NCBI GenBank assembly: GCA_030390025.1
Contig: CM059440.1
Location: 52,514,001-52,578,000, forward strand
Source: Squalus acanthias
Lineage: Eukaryota
Direction of reading: 5' to 3'
DNA length: 64,000 nt
Part shown: one piece after another, positions 54,161-63,747 of the stretch
Layout: each line of letters opens with the position of its first letter
How positions within the stretch are numbered: position 1 is the stretch's first letter
Position numbers and translations under genes: made by a program
Notes under the pieces: model-generated
The model's input: the letters and a program-made list of their open reading frames with translations, nothing else
Database searches by the model: none
Told to the model about the DNA's origin: nothing

Positions 54161-55817
54161 TTTTCTATTTTTTCCATTTCTGTCCTGTCTGTAATGACTT
54201 TCTGGAACACTTAACCTTGCTTTTTGAAAATCATATTTTTCTCTTTCCCGCCGACAGGCTGGCTGATTCTTGCCATGTGTCTCACTCCCAAAGTCGTCCT
54301 CTGAACTGAGTCACTCAGGTCCGTTCGGAAGTTGCTCTCTCCCTCCCAGGAAGTTGTATTTTTTAAATTGTTTTTCTGCTGCCTGACTGGCACCTCCTAC
54401 CACCTCTCCCCCAACCCCAAAATCCACCTGGTCCCTAATGCTGCTTCCTGGCGCCATTGGTCAATCATAGGTAGCCGTGCCTTCTGTTGCCTAGGTCCTA
54501 AGCTCTGGAATTCCCTCCCGAAACCTCCCTGCCTCTCTACCTCTCTTTCCTCCTTTGAGACGCTTCTTAAAGAGAGTGTCAGCTGTGGCTCAGTTGGTAG
54601 TGCAGCGGGCACAGAGTGAACAACTTTGGAGTTTGGTAAGTTTGGGAGTTTTAAGGGTTAATCTCTTTTAAAATCTAGTGTTAATTGCTAGTAGCTCTTA
54701 AGTAAGATCAACTGTTTAAGTTAAATTTTAAACTTTACATTTTTAAGTTTCTTTCAGGCTTAAGCAGAGAGAAACAAGCAAGCTCTCCTACTGGAGAGCT
54801 GCTGTAGTTAGTTAATTAGCTAGCTCGATTAAGCTGGTTCCTGAAGCAATAGCAGAGCAGTGCTGACCCACCTGAGTTACAAACAGTATAAATACAGGGG
54901 TCTGTGAGTGCAGCGGGCACAGAGTGAACAACTTGGGAGTTTGGTAAGTGTGGGAGTTCGGTGAAGTGGGGGAAGGAGGTGCTGCTTTGCTTTGCTTTTG
55001 CTAACTTCTCCTGCAGAGCAGCGGTGGACCTGAGCGGGAGCAGACCGAGGCCCGAGAGCGGGGATAAAAGCAGCAGCAGCAGACCTGCAACAACAAGAGA
55101 AAACTGCAGTGTGATGTCACAGGTAAGTGATTGGTAGTGACTGTGGGCTAAGTTTTAAGTTAACATATAGCATATAATTAAATTTTAAAACCTAAACTTA
55201 ATTTAATGAATTTAATAAACTAAACGAGGTAAATAATTTGATTAACACTAAACTAATTAATTAAATAAATTAAATAATGAGAGAACAGGAGATGTGTTGC
55301 TGCTGCAATATGTGGGATCTTGTGGACATTTTTGTCCAGGGCGACTACATCTGCGGTAAGTGTCTGCGGCTCGAGGAACTTCGGCTCCAAGTTGAGGACC
55401 TTTTGCTCCAGGAGGCAGCCATACCGCTTATATTAAATACTTTAGAATTGACATGTGGTCAGGGACAGGAGGGTGTCACTGCGAATGAGGCAGGTACGGG
55501 GATCCAGGAGGTAGTATTGCAGGAGCCTCAGTCCCTGTACTTGTCCAATAGATTCGAGGTTCTTGCAACACTTGTGGACAAGTGCAGGTCTGCGGGGAGG
55601 ACAAGCAAACTGACCACGGCACCGTGGTACAGGAAGCTGTTCAAGTAGGGGGGAGTAAAAAGGAAGATTATTGTAGTAGGCGACAGTATAGTTAAGGACT
55701 AGACACTGTTCTCTGCAGCCAGGAGCATGAGTCCCGAAGGCTATGTTGCCAGGGTAAAGGACATCTACTCCGGGCTGGAGAAGAACTTGGAGGGGGAGGA
55801 TCCATGTAGATACCAAT

Positions 55818-56032
55818 TGTCATAAATCGCAAGTAACAACTCAGGAAGTACTACTGGGCGGCCAGCTGGGGCGCCGTCCAGGGAGTATAAATACTCAGGC
55901 ATGGGCCCACCTTGGGCAGAGACAATCTGGAAACAGGAAGCTAGTGACTGCTAACTAGACCTCCATGTTTTGTTACAAGTTGATTAAAGCCTTGCTTTAT
56001 GTTCAAGTGCGTAGTGAGTCTTTATTACGTCA
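55818..56032 (+). repeat. 5' LTR (TATAAATA 55886-55893, ATTAAA 55983-55988)
   Basis: Identical to 60113-60327. Confidence 0.97.
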
Positions 56033-56033
56033 A

Positions 56034-56046
56034 TTTAATCAACTTG
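56034..56046 (+). other. Non-tRNA primer-binding site complementary to LTR 55976-55988
   Basis: TTTAATCAACTTG is the reverse complement of CAAGTTGATTAAA; no TGG after the LTR. Confidence 0.7.
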
Positions 56047-56132
56047 ATATCGTCTCCACGCTTTGGGTGATTCGGAACAACCAGCTGCAACTCGAACCAC
56101 AGAAGGGAACTTGGGCAAGAAACTGATCCATC

Positions 56133-59100
56133 ATGGAAAAACTCCTTAGACCCGCTCGTCTCGACCTGGACCCGAATGCACCTGCGGCAGCAAAGGTATG
56201 GAAGCATTGGTTTCGTACCTTTAGCAACTTTCTTGAAGAATGTGGGGCGGATGTCCCTAATAAGTTACGAATGCTTATCAACTACGTGTCTCCTCATGTG
56301 TATGATTATATTGAGGACTGTATAGACTATGACACTGCTATCGAAATCTTACAGCAGCTATATGTCAAGTCCCCAAATGAAATCTTTGCTCGACACCTAC
56401 TGGCCACAACTCGGCAGCAGCCTGGGGAATCACTCGATGAATTTCTCCAGAAACTTCGCAGGCTCAGCAAGGATTGTAACCTTAAAGCAGTTTCAGCTGA
56501 ACAGTATCAAGAGGAACTAATCCGCGATTCCTTTATCAATGGAATCGCGTCCCCTTTTATACGTCAGCGCCTGCTGGAAAATAAAACCCTCAATTTACGG
56601 GCTGCTTATGACCAGGCGTGTTCCTTGGACTTGGCCAAGAAAAATGCAGACACTTATCTCCCACCACGTGCACGGGCGGCGGCTATCTCCTTTAATGAGT
56701 CTTTCGGTAGGTCTCGGGCGGATGCCCCCACTGATGTTGACTCTACTCTAACAGACGACGACCCTACCCTAGAGGCCTTCGCTGATGACGACCCCGCCCT
56801 AGCAGCATCCTGGCAATCAGGAAGAAAGTGTTTCTTTTGTGGAGGGGCGTGCCATCACAGAAAATTTTGCCCGGCTCGTAATGTGACCTGCAATCATTGC
56901 AGCAAGAAAGGACACTTTTCCAAGGTATGCCAGTCACGGGCCTTTGCTAACAAGAAAGGCCGCTCCTCTAAAGTATACCGGTCGAGAGCTCTTGTTAGCT
57001 TCACAGCTGCTATCTATGGAGCTGCTCCTCCCCCAAGAACTACTGTTAAGGCTACAGTTGCCGAAGGGAAAATTGCCCCTCCTCCCATCACGGCTGTTTT
57101 TCCCCAAAGTTTGTCCCATGCAGCCACGAAGGTTTCAGTAAATGGGCACACTCTAAGTGCGCTAATCGACTCCTGCAGCTCTGACAGCTTCATTAGTAAG
57201 CGGGCTGTCAACAGGTTAAAACTGCACATTTATCCCTCGGACAGGGAGATTGCAATGGCTCTGACGACTCTGACCACCAATTCTTCTGGCTTCTGTCTGG
57301 TCAACCTCATCCTCAACGGCCGCACATATCTCTCCACCCGGCTCGGAGTACTCGCAAACTTATGCAGCGATGTGCTTCTGGGACAGGACTTCCAGAAGCA
57401 GCACAAGAAGATCACTTTTGAGTTTGGAGGGTCAAGGCCGGAGCTTACCATTTCTAAGGTGCCGTTTTGTGCACTCTCGGCGGCCTTACTCGGTGAACCC
57501 TCCCTGTTTGCCAATCTTCCCCCCCGCTGTAAACCCATAGCCACCAAATCGCGGCGCTTTAGCCAAGACGATCGAGCGTTTATTGAGGCGGAAATCTCTC
57601 GCCTTTTAGTCGACGGTATTATCGAGCCATGTTCATCTCCCTGGCGGGCTCAGGTCGTCATCGTGAGGAATCCCTTAAAACAACATAAAAAACGTCTGTG
57701 TATCGATTATTCGCAGACTATTAATCTATATACCGATCTGGATGCCTACCCGCTGCCACGCATAGATGACATGGTCAACAACCTTGCCAAATACAAGGTA
57801 TTCTCGACCTTCGATTTAAAAAGCGCGTACCATCAGGTGCCACTGCAAGACTCCGACAAGAAGTATACGGCCTTTGAGGCCAATGGTCGGCTTTTCCAGT
57901 TTCGCCGCCTTCCATTCGGGGTCACCAATGGGGTGGCCGTCTTCCAACGGGCCATGGATGGCCTAGTCTGGCAAGAGAACTTGACGGATACCTTTCCGTA
58001 TGTAGACAATATCACTATTGCCGGCCATGATCAAAAGGAGCATGACGCCAATCTTCAGAGATTTTTTGACGTACTCCGCCGTCGCCACTTAACGTTAAAC
58101 GAATCCAAATCGGTGAAGTCGGTGCCATCGGTGAACATTCTTGGCTACTGGGTGGGCAACGGTGTTATTAAACCGGACCCAGAGCGACTTCGTCCACTTC
58201 AGGAGCTCCCTCCCCCGACGAACCTCGGCTCTCTTCGTCGGGCACTTGGCATGTTTGCTTATTACGCAAAATGGATACCACACTTCTCCGATAAAATACA
58301 GCCCCTGCTCCATGCGAAGTCTTTTCCATTGGAAGCTATGGCTATTTCTGCCTTCAACCTCCTCAAACGACAGCTGGAGAAAGCCACGCTTCGCTCCATT
58401 GACGAAAATCTTCCTTTTGTGGTCGAATGCGATGCATCGGAGGTGGCGATCTCCACTACCTTGAATCAAGGTGGCCGACCCGTGGCATTCCTATCCAGAA
58501 CCTTGCAGGGTAGCGAGCTCCATTACCCCCCCGTCGAGAAGGAGGCTACGGCCATCATCGAGGCTGTACGCCAATGGGGTCATTTTCTTGCTCGGCGTCA
58601 TTTTACGCTTATAACTGACCAGCGCTCTGTGGCCTTCATGTTGGATAACCGGAGGCGCACGAAAATCAAAAATAATAAAATTCAACTCTGGAGGATGGAG
58701 CTGGCTGCCTTTGGATATACTATCTGTTACCGACCCGGCAAACAGAACGTGGCCCCAGATACCTTCACACGGGCATTTTGCTCCTCAATGTCAACGTCGA
58801 CTCTGGCGGATTTGCATATGGACTTATGCCATCCTGGTGTGACCCGCATGTTGCACTTTGTGCGCTCCAAAAATCTACCATTTTCAACCGAGGACGTAAA
58901 GAAAACATGCTCCTCCTGTAGGATTTGTGCAGAATTGAAACCACAATTCTTCCGCCCATCAGATGGCTTACTCATACATGCAATGCAGCCTATGCAGAGG
59001 CTCAGCATAGACTTTAAAGGGCCATTGCCTTCGTCGACAAGGAACACCTACCTACTTACGATGGTGGACGAGTATTCACGCTTTCCCTTCGCCTTCCCCT

Positions 59101-60074
59101 GCCCTAATATGCTTACCTCTACGGTAATTAAATGCCTCGATCAGGTCTTTTCCCTTTGCGGGACGGCCAATTTTATCCACACTGATCGGGGTCCCTCCTT
59201 TATGTCGAGTGAACTTAAAAGTTATCTCTCCCAACGGGGAATCGCCTCAAGTAGGACGACACCATATCACCCAATCGGTAACGGACAGGTTGAACGATAC
59301 AATGCCATCATCTGGAACGCTGTCCGTCTGGCACTAAGGTCACGCAACCTGCCGGACCAGCAGTGGGAAACGGTGCTCCCCGACGCGTTACACTCTATCA
59401 GGTCTCTTCTCTCCACATCTACTAATGTCACGCCTCATGAGCGATTCTTCAAATTCCGGCGTCGCTCTACACATGGGACGTCTCTACCGTCATGGTTGGT
59501 GGCTCCAGGCCCGGTGCTACTCCGGAGGTTCGTCCGGTCTGCCAAAAACGACCCTCTCGTTGACGAGGTGGAGTTAACGGAGGTAAACCCCACGTATGCG
59601 CACGTACGGTACCCTGATGGCCGGGAGACCACCGTCTCGCTCCGAGATCTGGCTCCCTGCCCAACCGGTCACACGGGCCCGAATGATGAAGGATCCCCCG
59701 ACAATGATATCAACACTCCGCACCCCTATGAAAATGACGCCCCGCCTGGGACATCAGGGGATCTGCCGGCAACGCTACCGGATCAACTCAGGGAGCTGGA
59801 CGCTCCCCGCAGGATGGCCACCCGAAACCAGGACGCCGGACAATCTCCAGCCACGACCCGGGATGAGGCCAGCTCAGCACCTGTGGGGACCCGCACCCGG
59901 AGTCATGATATTCCCAGTCCTCCACAGGATGATCAAGATGACGCGGACTCTACTGACTTACCGGTACGGGCCAAGCGACCCAGGGACCAGGACACGGTCC
60001 GGGGAGACGTGCCTTCCAGTCACAAGCAGAGAGCTAAACGTCTGCGGCTATTTCTGGTCCGCCTAGTCCGTTAA
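56133..60074 (+). CDS. Gag-Pol polyprotein (Gag with two Zn knuckles, protease, RT, RNase H, integrase), 1313 aa
   Basis: CFFC..H..CPA and CNHCSKKGHFSKVC; LIDSCSS; FDLKSAYHQ, LPFG, YVDN; ECDAS, EKEA, TDQ; HHCC, IDFKGP, TDRG, GQVER. Confidence 0.96.
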   Translation: MEKLLRPARLDLDPNAPAAAKVWKHWFRTFSNFLEECGADVPNKLRMLINYVSPHVYDYIEDCIDYDTAIEILQQLYVKSPNEIFARHLLATTRQQPGESLDEFLQKLRRLSKDCNLKAVSAEQYQEELIRDSFINGIASPFIRQRLLENKTLNLRAAYDQACSLDLAKKNADTYLPPRARAAAISFNESFGRSRADAPTDVDSTLTDDDPTLEAFADDDPALAASWQSGRKCFFCGGACHHRKFCPARNVTCNHCSKKGHFSKVCQSRAFANKKGRSSKVYRSRALVSFTAAIYGAAPPPRTTVKATVAEGKIAPPPITAVFPQSLSHAATKVSVNGHTLSALIDSCSSDSFISKRAVNRLKLHIYPSDREIAMALTTLTTNSSGFCLVNLILNGRTYLSTRLGVLANLCSDVLLGQDFQKQHKKITFEFGGSRPELTISKVPFCALSAALLGEPSLFANLPPRCKPIATKSRRFSQDDRAFIEAEISRLLVDGIIEPCSSPWRAQVVIVRNPLKQHKKRLCIDYSQTINLYTDLDAYPLPRIDDMVNNLAKYKVFSTFDLKSAYHQVPLQDSDKKYTAFEANGRLFQFRRLPFGVTNGVAVFQRAMDGLVWQENLTDTFPYVDNITIAGHDQKEHDANLQRFFDVLRRRHLTLNESKSVKSVPSVNILGYWVGNGVIKPDPERLRPLQELPPPTNLGSLRRALGMFAYYAKWIPHFSDKIQPLLHAKSFPLEAMAISAFNLLKRQLEKATLRSIDENLPFVVECDASEVAISTTLNQGGRPVAFLSRTLQGSELHYPPVEKEATAIIEAVRQWGHFLARRHFTLITDQRSVAFMLDNRRRTKIKNNKIQLWRMELAAFGYTICYRPGKQNVAPDTFTRAFCSSMSTSTLADLHMDLCHPGVTRMLHFVRSKNLPFSTEDVKKTCSSCRICAELKPQFFRPSDGLLIHAMQPMQRLSIDFKGPLPSSTRNTYLLTMVDEYSRFPFAFPCPNMLTSTVIKCLDQVFSLCGTANFIHTDRGPSFMSSELKSYLSQRGIASSRTTPYHPIGNGQVERYNAIIWNAVRLALRSRNLPDQQWETVLPDALHSIRSLLSTSTNVTPHERFFKFRRRSTHGTSLPSWLVAPGPVLLRRFVRSAKNDPLVDEVELTEVNPTYAHVRYPDGRETTVSLRDLAPCPTGHTGPNDEGSPDNDINTPHPYENDAPPGTSGDLPATLPDQLRELDAPRRMATRNQDAGQSPATTRDEASSAPVGTRTRSHDIPSPPQDDQDDADSTDLPVRAKRPRDQDTVRGDVPSSHKQRAKRLRLFLVRLVR

Positions 60075-60100
60075 AGGAAGACTGGACTTCCAAACCTTTT

Positions 60101-60112
60101 AGGGAGGAAGAA
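60101..60112 (+). other. Polypurine tract
   Basis: AGGGAGGAAGAA abutting the 3' LTR. Confidence 0.9.
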
Positions 60113-60327
60113 TGTCATAAATCGCAAGTAACAACTCAGGAAGTACTACTGGGCGGCCAGCTGGGGCGCCGTCCAGGGAGTATAAATACTCAGGCATGGG
60201 CCCACCTTGGGCAGAGACAATCTGGAAACAGGAAGCTAGTGACTGCTAACTAGACCTCCATGTTTTGTTACAAGTTGATTAAAGCCTTGCTTTATGTTCA
60301 AGTGCGTAGTGAGTCTTTATTACGTCA
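60113..60327 (+). repeat. 3' LTR
   Basis: Identical to the 5' LTR. Confidence 0.97.
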
Positions 60328-63300
60328 CCAATGACATAGGTAGGACTAAGAAAAAGGTTCTACTGAGAAAGTTTGAGCAGCTAGGGACTAAATTAAAAAG
60401 CAGAACCACAAAGGTAATAATCTCTGGATTATTACCTGAGCCACGAGCAAATTGGCATAGGGTAAATAGGATCAGGGAGATGAATGCATGGCTCAAAGAT
60501 TGGTGTGGGAGAAGTGGGTTTCCATTCGTGGGGCACTGGCACCAATACTGGGGAAAGAGAGAACTGTTCCATTGAGACGGACTACACCTGAACCATGCTG
60601 GGACCAGAGTTCTAGCAAATCGAATAACTAGGGAGGTAGATAGGGCTTTAAACTAAATAAGGGGAAGGAGGGTCCCGGTGGAGAGAAATCTAGAATGCTA
60701 AAGAGAAAAGACAAGGAAGCAGTGCAGGAAAGTGATTGGGGTAAGGATAACCAGATTGTGTTAGGAAGGGACAGAGCGTACAAACAAAGGAGTGCACTAA
60801 CAAATAGGGTCCAGGTAAGAAAAAATGGTAATAAGACAAATAGGGCCATAGTACAAAAAAAGTTAAGACGTCTAAAAATGTTAAAGACAAATCTAAAGGC
60901 ACTGTATCTGAATGCACGAAGTATTTGTAATAAGGTAGACGAATTAACAGCACAAATAGATGTAAACAGATACGATATAATTGCAATTACGGAGACATGG
61001 CTGCAGGGTGACCAAAGCTGGGAGCTGAATATCCAAGGAGATTCGATATTTAGGAAGGACAGGCAAAAAGGAAAAGGAGGCGTTGTTAGTAAAGGATGAA
61101 ATCAGAGCAATAGTGAGAAAGGATATTGGCTCAGAAAATCAAGATGTAGAATTAGTCTGGGTGGAGCTAAGAAGCACCAAAGGGCAGAAAATACTGGTGG
61201 GAGTTGTCTATAGGCCTCCAAACAGTAGTGGTAATGTAGGGGATGGCATCAAACAGGAAATTAGAGATGCATGTAACAAGGGTACTACAGTAATCATGGG
61301 TGACTTTAATCTACATATATACTGGCTAAACCAAATTAGCAATAACACTGTGGAGGATGAATTCTTGGACTGTGCACGAAATGGTTTTTTGGAATAGTAC
61401 ATTGAGGAGCCAACTAGGGAACAGGCTACCCTAGATTGGGTATTGTGCAATGAGAAGGGGTTAATTAATAATCTTGTTGTGCGGGGTCCTTTAGGGAAGA
61501 GTGACCATAACATGTTAGAATTCATCATTAAGATGGAAAGTGAAGTAGTCCAATCGAAACTAGTGTCCTAAATCTAAACAAAGGGAACTACGAAGGTATG
61601 AGGAGGGAGTTGGCTATGATAGATTGGGGAGCTTTATTAAAAGGCATGATGGTGGATAGGCAATCGCTAACATTTAAGGAACGAATGCATGAATTGCAAC
61701 AGTTATACATTCCTTTCTGGCGCAAAAACACAAAAGGAAAAGCGGCCCAACCATGGCTAACAAAATAAATTAAGGATACTATTAGATTCAAAGAGGAGTC
61801 ATATAAAGTTGCCAGAAAAAGTATCAAGCCTGAGGATTGGGAGCAGTTTAGAATTCAGCAAAAAAGGACCAAGAGATTGATTAAAAGGGGAAAAATAGAG
61901 TATAAGAGTAAACTTGCAAGGAACATAAAAGCGGACTGTAAAAGCTTCTACAAGTATGTAAAAAGAAAAAGATTATTGAAGACAAATGTAGGTCGCTTAC
62001 AGTCAGAAACAGAAGAATTTATAATGGGGAACAAGAAAATGGCAGAGCAATTAAACAAATACTTTGGTTCTGTCTTCACAGAAGAGGACACAAATAAATT
62101 CACAGAAATGCTAGGGAACCAAGGGTCTAGTGAGAAGGAGGAATTAAAGGAAATTAGTATTCGTAAAAAAATAGTGCTGGAGTAATTAATGGGACTGAAA
62201 GCCGATAAATCCCATGGGCCTGATAATCTGCATCCCAGAGTACTAAAAGAAATAATGGACGCATTGGTTGTCATCATCCAAAATTCTATAGATTATGGAA
62301 CAGTTCCTGCAGATTGGAGAGTGCCAAATGTAACCCCACTATTTAAAAAGAGAGGGAGAGAGAAAACAGGAAACTACAGACCGGTTAGCCTAACATCAGT
62401 AGTAGGGAAAATGCTAGAGTCTATTATAAAGGATGTGATAACAGGACACTTAGAAAATATCAACGGGATTAGACAAAGTCAACATGGATTTATGAAAAGG
62501 AAATCGTGTTTGACAAACCTCCTGGAGTTTCTTGAGGATGTAACTGGTTGAATAGATAAGGGAGAACCAGTGGATGTAGTGTATTTGGATTTTCAGAAGG
62601 CCTTTGTTAAAGTCCCACATAAGAGGTTAGTGTGCAAAATTTAAGCACATGGGATAGGGGGTAATATACTGGCATGGATTGAAAATTGGTTAACAGACAG
62701 GAAACAGAGAGTAGGCGGTGATTAGTGGGGTACCGCAGGGATCAGTGCTTGGGCCCCAGCTATTCACAATATATATCAATGATTTGGATGAGGGAACCAA
62801 ATGTAATATTTCCAAGTTTGCTGATGACACGAAACTAGGTGGGATTGTGAGTTGTGAGGAGGATGCAAAGAGGCTTCAAGGCGATTTAGACAAGTTGAGT
62901 GAGTGGGCAAATACATGGCAGATTCAGTTTAACGTGGATAAATGTGAAGTTATCCACTTCAGTAGGAAAAACAGAAAGGCAGAGTATTATTTAAATGGGG
63001 ATAGATTGGGAAATGTTGATGTACAAAGGGACCTGGGTGTCCTTGTACACCAGTCACTGAAAGCAAACATGCAGGTACAGCAAGCAGTTAGGAAGGCAAA
63101 TGGTATGTTTGCCTTCATTGCAAGAGGATTTGAATACAGGAGCAAGGATGTCTTACTACAGTTATACAGGGCCTTGGTAAGACCACACTTGGAGTACTTT
63201 GTGCAGTTTAGGTCTCCTTACCTAAGAAAGGATATGCTCGCCATAGAGGGAGTGCAGCGAAGGTGCACCAGACTGATTCCTGGGATGGCAGGACTGTTGT

Positions 63301-63747
63301 ATGAGGAGAGATTGGGTCAACTAGGCCTGTATTCAATAGAGTTTAGAAGAATGAGAGGAGATCTCATTGAAACGTATAAAATTCTGACAGGGCTAGACAG
63401 ATTGGATGCAGGGAGGATGTTTCCCCTGACTGGGGGGTCCAGAACGAGGGGTCACAGTCTCAGGATACGGGGTAGGACATTTAGGACTGAGATGAGGAGA
63501 AATTTCTTCACTCAGAGGGTGGTGAACCTGTAGAATTCTCTACCACAGAAGGCTGTGGAGGCCAAGTCGCTGAATATATTTAAGAAGGAGATAGATAGAT
63601 TTCTAGACACAAAAGGCATCAAGGGGTATGGGAAGAGAGCAGGAATATGGTATTGAGATAGAGGATCAGCCATGATCATATTGAATGGCGGAGCAGGCTC
63701 GAAGGGCCGAATGGCCTACTCCTGCTCCTATTTTTCTATGTTTCTAT

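What the first reader, a model, noticed from the sequence alone, without database searches (positions are those of the whole stretch)
55976..56046. Gypsy element with no tRNA PBS: its PBS pairs with its own polyA-signal region (candidate self-priming)
Seen: after the 5' LTR end (..CGTCA, 56032) and a 1-nt spacer comes TTTAATCAACTTG rather than the TGG of a tRNA-CCA PBS. This is the exact 13-nt reverse complement of LTR 55976-55988 (CAAGTTGATTAAA), which ends in the ATTAAA polyA signal. In the duplex, the 3' end of the LTR segment sits right at the U5 border, which is the geometry a minus-strand primer needs. Established: Tf1/sushi-type elements self-prime using the first ~11 nt of their transcript after RNase H cleavage. 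Inference: the TATA box (55886) puts the start near 55915-55920, so this primer would be an internal R segment overlapping the polyA signal (5' fold-back or the 3' R copy). That would be a different self-priming arrangement, and the same hairpin could also mask the 5' LTR polyA signal.
Basis: partly seen in the sequence, partly recalled or inferred. Interest (0 to 1): 0.85.

Follow-up and report, generated by a model that had tools for sequence, protein, structure and literature searches.

The report
Self-priming Gypsy with internal RNA primer
This young jumping gene and many distant relatives carry, where a borrowed tRNA normally binds, a sequence that pairs with the element's own end repeat, so they likely start DNA copying with a cut piece of their own RNA, probably not the front piece used by the one proven case in yeast.

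Summary
Observation confirmed. The 13-nt site after the 5' LTR is the exact reverse complement of LTR 55976-55988. The same geometry, with family-specific sequences, occurs in 31 of 40 related families, and one subfamily here changed both sides together in 23 of 24 copies. A tRNA primer is therefore very unlikely. Copying footprints add mechanism. The first base after the site differs in 114 of 600 copies, the last paired base is substituted in none, and the variant is mostly G rather than cap-type C. This points to an uncapped 13-nt primer, so not Tf1's capped first 11 nt. A TATA box and a C>G hot site at 55917 put the start at 55918 and suggest an uncut template. Three independent aberrant loci read on from the site into U3, two of them further into the PPT and pol. 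Best reading: the primer is cut from the 3' R copy or a partner RNA (0.5); 5' fold-back remains possible (0.3). The poly(A) hexamer is canonical in only 17 of 30 families. No RNA ends were obtained. The scan noted this signature before on other DNA (39 notes); one note on this genome reached the same 3'-end reading.

The parts
55813..55817 (+). left target-site duplication (5 bp)
   Evidence: 5-bp TSD in 144 of 162 copies scored
55818..56032 (+). 5' LTR, 215 nt, TG...CA
   Evidence: identical to the 3' LTR
55886..55893 (+). TATA box (TATAAATA), kept in the older sister family B of this genome
   Evidence: function inferred
55917..55918 (+). predicted U3/R border: C|A initiator 32 nt after the TATA; 55917 is a C>G hot site (possible cap footprint of first strand transfer)
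   Evidence: partly inherited within lineages
55976..55988 (+). LTR segment complementary to the primer site (5' copy); ends in ATTAAA (55983-55988)
55989..56007 (+). predicted short hairpin just 3' of the likely cut site; relatives often have RCC..GGY starting exactly at this point
   Evidence: fold; motif in 19 of 29 families
56034..56046 (+). primer-binding site, no tRNA-type TGG, one A (56033) after the LTR end
56047..56047 (+). first base after the site: hypervariable across copies (likely non-templated addition at the primer's 5' end)
   Evidence: 114 of 600 non-A; scattered over lineages
56133..60074 (+). single ORF: Gag (CCHC motif by eye), protease, RT, RNase H, integrase; no chromodomain
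60101..60112 (+). polypurine tract
   Evidence: sequence
60113..60327 (+). 3' LTR
60271..60283 (+). 3' LTR copy of the segment; proposed source of the primer
   Evidence: inference; read-through loci L437, L439, L440
60328..60332 (+). right target-site duplication

Best explanation
The site after the 5' LTR pairs with a 13-nt stretch of the element's own R region, and this young Gypsy element likely primes minus-strand DNA with that stretch, probably cut from the 3' end of its RNA (or a co-packaged RNA) rather than from the capped front. Shown: the pairing, its covariation, the hypervariable base after the site, the hot site at 55917, and the read-through loci. Inferred steps: (1) transcription starts at 55918 and ends 10-30 nt past the 3' ATTAAA; (2) the 3' R segment anneals to the primer site; (3) RNase H cuts at AAA|GCC, next to a short hairpin, and frees a 3'-OH, by analogy with Tf1; (4) RT copies U5 and R up to the cap, sometimes adding a cap-templated C, and jumps to the 3' R that is tethered to the primer; (5) RNase H trims the RNA upstream of the duplex and leaves an uncapped 13-mer; (6) plus-strand synthesis copies this 13-mer, which rewrites the primer site each round, and often adds one untemplated base.
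For: Self-priming: 31 of 40 families have a perfect 12-19 bp match with the same geometry, and 81 control windows reach at most 9. Among 30 families chosen for a match of 12 bp or more there are 28 distinct 12-mers, and cross-family pairing at 9 of 9 positions occurs in 0.5%. A subfamily changed both sides in 23 of 24 matches; single copy L087 did so too, with the change in both LTRs. Defined uncapped 5' end: 114 of 600 copies are non-A at 56047 (of 100 listed: 86 G, 14 C, 0 T), against 0 substitutions and 2 insertions at 56046. G occurs in all 4 lineages scored and C in 3. The older subfamily has A12, G5, C3, T2 and 1 deletion; family B, with a 12-bp match, has G10, A3 and 3 deletions at the next base. 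Only 1 of 30 families has C there. PMC6885630 (passages): MMLV-type RT adds C first on capped RNA and A, C or G on uncapped RNA. Start at 55918 and uncut template: 101 LTRs are non-C at 55917 (97 G, 3 T of 100 listed; 24 pairs about 4.3 kb apart by my count) against 1,858 with C; neighbours give 24, 8 and 9. Position 55988 has 4 variants, 3 of them on one contig, and 0 of 166 copies carry a both-LTR variant in 55976-56010. 3' origin: L437 and the tandem pair L439/L440 continue from the primer site as an inverted copy of R, U3, PPT and pol.
Against: The local 5' hairpin is predicted at about 0.9 probability and should form first. The 55917 G is partly inherited: 2 of 30 G copies (one tandem pair) sit on lineage-1 bodies against 88 of 177 others, and 9 of 30 share a private marker; a tree gives 19 changes for 26 carriers, shuffles 24.8, which does not prove recurrence. 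In family B the homologous base is G in only 1 of 100 listed. The read-through loci can also arise by mis-transfer of plus strong-stop DNA onto a partner RNA. In L438 one piece of minus-sense U5 stops at 55988, as a cut template would give (n=1). Uncompensated cases exist: L094 (both LTRs), L071, L075, L041, L171, and several family B copies, some sharing the same mismatch; 6 of 7 copies mutated at three tested positions were uncompensated, and the seventh, L187, lacks the change in its 3' LTR. Invertebrate relatives mostly lack a TATA at any fixed distance, so the start site argument holds for this genome only. 9 of 40 families showed no match of 12 bp or more.
Confidence: 0.5

Rival explanations
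1. Self-priming by 5' fold-back with an internal primer: RNA starts at 55918, the 5' R segment pairs with the site in cis, RNase H cuts at 55988/9, the 45-nt strong-stop DNA jumps to a short 3' R, and the 58-nt capped leader is trimmed off the primer later.
For: The cis hairpin is favoured in folding and buries the 5' ATTAAA (unpaired probability 0.00-0.20 against 0.17-0.64 in the 3' context). It explains the uncapped 13-nt end equally well. L438 has a minus-sense piece ending at 55988. Closest to the Tf1 chemistry (PMC7175516, passage).
Against: A cut template cannot give a cap footprint at 55917 in normal copies, yet G there is common and lies on several haplotypes and in the older subfamily. 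No error excess at 55988. L437 and L439/440 need an extra template switch.
Confidence: 0.3
2. Ordinary Tf1-type priming: transcription starts at 55976 and the first 13 capped nucleotides are the primer.
For: The primer's 5' end is sharp at 55976. Only one cut is needed. Relatives lack a conserved upstream TATA.
Against: 55976 is a C after an A, not a pyrimidine-purine initiator, with no TATA 30 nt upstream, while a strong TATA lies 90 nt upstream. A capped end should favour C at 56047, but G leads C 86 to 14 and only 1 of 30 families has C. The 55917 hot site is left unexplained.
Confidence: 0.12
3. The pairing is a regulatory hairpin (poly(A) masking or packaging), and an unknown host RNA primes.
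For: 17 of 30 families end the segment in a canonical poly(A) hexamer. The host tRNA scan covered only 7 distinct tRNAs.
Against: 28 different 12-mers in 30 families cannot match one host RNA. The hairpin alone does not explain a hypervariable base exactly after the duplex, whose position moves with duplex length (13 in family A, 12 in family B).
Confidence: 0.06

Closest known systems
Tf1/Tf2 (Schizosaccharomyces pombe), Tj1, Tosmo and the Tf1/sushi group of chromoviruses
   Same: Ty3/gypsy element; no tRNA site; primer site right after the 5' LTR is complementary to an LTR segment; a second helix lies next to the predicted cut; RT adds untemplated bases (PMC11042837 passage).
   Different: No chromodomain. 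The match is 12-19 bp, not a fixed 11. The primer looks internal and uncapped rather than the first 11 nt (PMC7175516, PMC10085805 passages). The flanking helix is a local hairpin, not shown to be the three-duplex 'pretzel'. The segment often ends in the poly(A) hexamer.
Tcn1 clade (plants, fungi) and TAR Copia lineage (Houba, Osr-1), predicted self-primers
   Same: Primer site complementary to the 5' LTR, inferred from sequence (PMC6317226 passages); shows that self-priming has been predicted outside Tf1 itself.
   Different: Other lineages and hosts; the passages read make no claim of an internal or 3'-derived primer.
Skipper (dictyostelids)
   Same: Gypsy without a tRNA site; unconventional priming proposed (PMC5006619 passage).
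   Different: Skipper has no complementary LTR segment and is a chromovirus.
Retroviral tRNA priming with strand-transfer errors (MLV '+1G', Ty1 template-end errors; recalled, papers not seen)
   Same: Primer site is regenerated from the primer; untemplated bases at template ends become fixed.
   Different: The primer here is element RNA.

Membership tests
Ty3/gypsy LTR retrotransposon | LTRs, TSD, PPT, and pol order PR-RT-RH-IN | tested here: met
Tf1/sushi group | primer site complementary to a 5' LTR segment, no tRNA site | tested here: met
Tf1/sushi group | integrase chromodomain | tested here: not met
   no Pfam chromo hit in the whole protein (E<=0.1), the last 257 aa or 3 relatives (E<=1); none among the precomputed domains of 120 listed relatives
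Tf1/sushi group | primer is the capped first ~11 nt of the transcript | tested here: inconclusive
   footprints favour a start at 55918 and an uncapped 13-mer; no RNA ends
Tf1/sushi group | three-duplex 'pretzel' around the primer duplex | tested here: inconclusive
   predicted folds show a local hairpin 3' of the segment, not duplexes with site-adjacent sequence; prediction only
Tf1/sushi group | RT phylogeny inside the chromovirus branch | not tested
   no Tf1/sushi reference sequences were on hand; only Ty3 RT appeared
Tf1/sushi group | RNase H cuts the RNA duplex to make the primer | not testable with these tools
   needs biochemistry
tRNA-primed Gypsy | primer site starts with TGG and matches a tRNA 3' end or half | tested here: not met
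   no TGG; best match 4 nt, but only 7 distinct Lys/Cys tRNAs were scanned; the family-specific sequences are the stronger argument
named metazoan Gypsy clades (Cigr, MolGy, PolGy, Mag, CsRN1) | RT/RH tree placement with reference elements | not tested
   reference FASTA supplements could not be read

The most novel reading that the evidence does not exclude
A widespread animal Gypsy lineage primes reverse transcription with the 3' end of its own genomic RNA, so primer and first-jump acceptor are one tethered molecule: a third way of starting LTR-element replication besides tRNA and Tf1-type 5' priming, readable from error footprints in genomic copies.
Probability: 0.4. Interest if true: 0.88.

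Novelty: new variant of a known kind. Interest (0 to 1): 0.72.

Why it matters
Self-priming is proven only in fission-yeast Tf1 and predicted for a few other lineages. Here it extends, with strong covariation, to a non-chromodomain Gypsy lineage whose proteins occur in records named for crustaceans, cnidarians, a tunicate and a nematode, and to a recently amplified family in a 3.7-Gb animal genome. If the primer is the RNA's own 3' end, the scheme of LTR replication gains a new start mode, one independent of host tRNA and of tRNA-fragment silencing. The copy-level footprints also give a way to map primer ends and start sites of any young LTR family from genome sequence alone.

Tried and rejected
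RNA evidence: no RNA holder was listed; the one raw RNA run laid 0 reads and contig runs showed no poly(A) or start site, so no test. No retroposed copy with a poly(A) tail after the segment (0 matches). No chimeric LTR between the main and the older subfamily (0 matches), so the first jump could not be mapped that way. Viral contigs gave no relatives. Rfam found nothing near threshold. A splice-junction primer, as earlier notes propose for BEL elements, was considered because AG often sits at -11/-10; rejected because pairing runs on and covaries through contiguous LTR sequence upstream of the AG and several families lack the AG. A fixed 11-nt primer starting at that AG was my first reading; rejected because positions 12 and 13 are invariant here and pair in 29-30 of 30 families. 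The RNA ending at the AAA by polyadenylation was rejected: no poly(A) hexamer lies 15-30 nt upstream. A first guess at the fold-back junction was wrong (found). Searches had orientation or window errors and were replaced; one search crashed and was replaced. Clade naming failed. Three key Tf1 papers were not held.

Full report
The element. The finding lies in a 4,510-bp Ty3/gypsy element at 55818-60327: two identical 215-nt LTRs, a 5-bp TSD, a PPT and one ORF with protease, RT, RNase H and integrase, without a chromodomain. The family is young and abundant. All 40 scored DNA matches are 100% identical over the first 313 nt, about 600 5' ends match the primer-site patterns, and the two LTRs of 166 copies differ by 0.8% on average. 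Protein relatives at 50-69% identity number at least 996; the few named ones are from Palaemon, Caligus, Armadillidium, Xenia, Actinostola, Clavelina and Trichuris.

The observation. 56034-56046 is the exact reverse complement of 55976-55988, one base after the LTR end. One of 20,000 shuffles reached this length.

Covariation between families. A Gag alignment retrieved 80 metagenome loci (the best 80 of 286 confirmed) and 8 loci from genome bins. I left out 6 of these 88: five with too little upstream sequence and one without the Gag start. Of the other 82, 58 have a perfect inverted match of 12 bp or more upstream of Gag; grouped at 85% DNA identity, 31 of 40 families do, while 81 control windows inside gag reach at most 9 bp. 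In 22 loci both LTRs were inspected, and the site follows the LTR's CA by one base (three 3' LTRs are cut by contig ends). For the window plus 29 families with intact geometry, chosen for a match of at least 12 bp, pairing holds at position 13 in 29, at 14 in 24, at 15 and 16 in 18, and falls to 8 at 17. There are 28 distinct 12-mers, and segment and site from different families pair at all nine variable positions in 0.5% of cases. Even the terminal AAA covaries (AGA with TCT in two families). The hexamer is AATAAA or ATTAAA in 17 of 30, so the poly(A) overlap is common but not required. A hairpin motif starts exactly after the segment in 19 of 29 families.

Covariation within the genome. A subfamily about 95% identical to the window changed segment position -8 and the paired base together in 23 of 24 matches; the exception is a main-family copy. 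Family B, an older sister family, has a 12-bp version. Single-position searches found 3, 1 and 3 mutated copies at -13, -12 and -7; one of the seven is compensated, but its 3' LTR lacks the change, so it is ambiguous. Uncompensated copies also occur among relatives and in family B. They are expected from post-insertion mutation and from first-generation intermediates, but they are not support.

Footprint 1: where the primer ends. If plus-strand synthesis copies the primer and runs off its 5' end, RT should sometimes add an untemplated base. Position 56047 is non-A in 114 of 600 copies (of 100 listed, 86 G, 14 C, no T); 56046 has no substitution and two insertions; 56048 is changed in 4 of 100 listed non-A copies and 0 of 100 listed A copies. 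In 200 fetched copies, deliberately enriched for G and C, G occurs in all four lineages and C in three. The older subfamily shows all four bases and a deletion; family B varies one base earlier, matching its shorter duplex. The primer therefore has a sharp 5' end at 55976 (inference). For MMLV-type RT, capped RNA gives C first and uncapped RNA gives A, C or G (PMC6885630, passages); Tf1 RT adds untemplated bases (PMC11042837, passage). G over C here, and C in only 1 of 30 families, argue for an uncapped end. Easier extension of a G:T than a C:T mismatch may bias the ratio.

Footprint 2: where the first jump happens. A Tf1-type cut would end the template at 55988/9; an uncut template would end at the cap. 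Position 55988 has 4 variants, three on one contig, and 0 of 166 copies with two full LTRs (34 of 200 skipped as incomplete) have a both-LTR variant in 55976-56010. At 55917, just before a C|A initiator 32 nt after the TATA, 101 LTRs are non-C (97 G of 100 listed, often in both LTRs) against 1,858 with C; 55916, 55918 and 55923 give 24, 8 and 9. An unencoded G before +1 is the known cap signature (the retroviral '+1G' case is recalled, not read). This evidence is weaker than it looks. G copies are depleted on lineage-1 bodies (2 of 30 against 88 of 177, p=4e-6) and 9 share a private marker, so much of the count is inheritance. They do lie on both alleles of a U3 marker (15:15), on several haplotypes and in two loci of the older subfamily. 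In family B this base is the most variable of five shown (14 of 100 listed), but mostly C, with one G.

Aberrant products. Four loci, three independent, continue from the primer site as an inverted copy of upstream LTR sequence. L437 runs through R, U3, the PPT and about 130 nt of internal sequence; the tandem pair L439/L440 runs on for at least 1.3 kb of internal sequence. This is what read-through of an untrimmed 3'-end primer would give, but annealing of plus strong-stop DNA to a partner RNA gives the same. L438 is complex, and one of its pieces stops at 55988, which hints at a cut template.

Mechanism. Self-priming itself is near certain (about 0.93). An internal, uncapped primer is likely (about 0.8). 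Its origin from the 3' R or a partner RNA (0.5) is ahead of 5' fold-back (0.3), which folding favours and which would also mask the 5' poly(A) hexamer. Both routes may operate.

Comparison with what is known. Tf1 uses its first 11 nt after an RNase H cut (PMC7175516), within a three-duplex structure shared by Tf1/sushi chromoviruses (PMC10085805; PMC4600332; PMC5341516). Self-priming is also predicted for Tcn1 and TAR Copia (PMC6317226), and an unusual mode for Skipper (PMC5006619). All of these were read as passages only, as were PMC3601003, PMC3587641, PMC8556966, PMC12789967, PMC6894440 and PMC10886601; for PMC6238403 I saw the listing and searched supplements. The element works like Tf1 but fails the chromodomain test and was not placed on a tree. 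Ten full-text searches showed no listing on self-priming in this animal lineage or on a 3'-derived primer. The library lacks most subscription papers, Repbase Reports and three Tf1 papers, and unread supplements of PMC6238403 and PMC8556966 may name the clade.

Earlier notes. The scan holds 39 notes with this signature in at least 11 genomes. Note e1-7857552, on the same genome and seen late, reached the same 3'-end reading; it probably concerns the same family and is not independent support.

Verdict: real, a new variant of a known kind, interest 0.72.

Noticed in passing
L403-L406 and two more loci: Six loci hold a fold-back of the LTR: 55818-55970 forward, then a back-copy to 55818. Three of the four inspected are free-standing 266-bp pieces with U3 ends on both sides and different 5-bp TSDs; one is joined to an element's 3' part. 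Likely integrated hairpin by-products; the turn lies 5 nt before the primer's 5' end.
   Followed up: partly
G000 C1:90667592-90667819 and C2:10600944-10601048: Family B also shows closely spaced inverted LTR pairs; the centre of the first falls near the midpoint between segment and primer site.
   Followed up: no
L073 family: A metagenome family with 60% Gag identity and an otherwise unlike LTR has the same 13-nt segment and site as the window.
   Followed up: no
relatives, segment position -10: A G:C pair is kept at this position in 27 of 30 families while neighbours vary; it may set the register of the cut. Unexplained.
   Followed up: no
L066, L073, L088, L103 families: In many relatives the Gag start codon lies within about 20 nt of the LTR end, directly after the primer site, so the duplex could affect translation.
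   Followed up: no
window 55962: Variants in only one LTR occur 17 times at this non-CpG site in 166 copies; mutational hot spot or assembly artefact.
   Followed up: no
window 55274-55817 and 60328-63730: The element is inserted in a degraded LINE-like sequence (endonuclease- and RT-like frames, label by recalled resemblance); such fragments fill much of the window.
   Followed up: no
L141-L148: Eight prokaryotic genome bins contain this retrotransposon, most likely as eukaryotic contamination.
   Followed up: no
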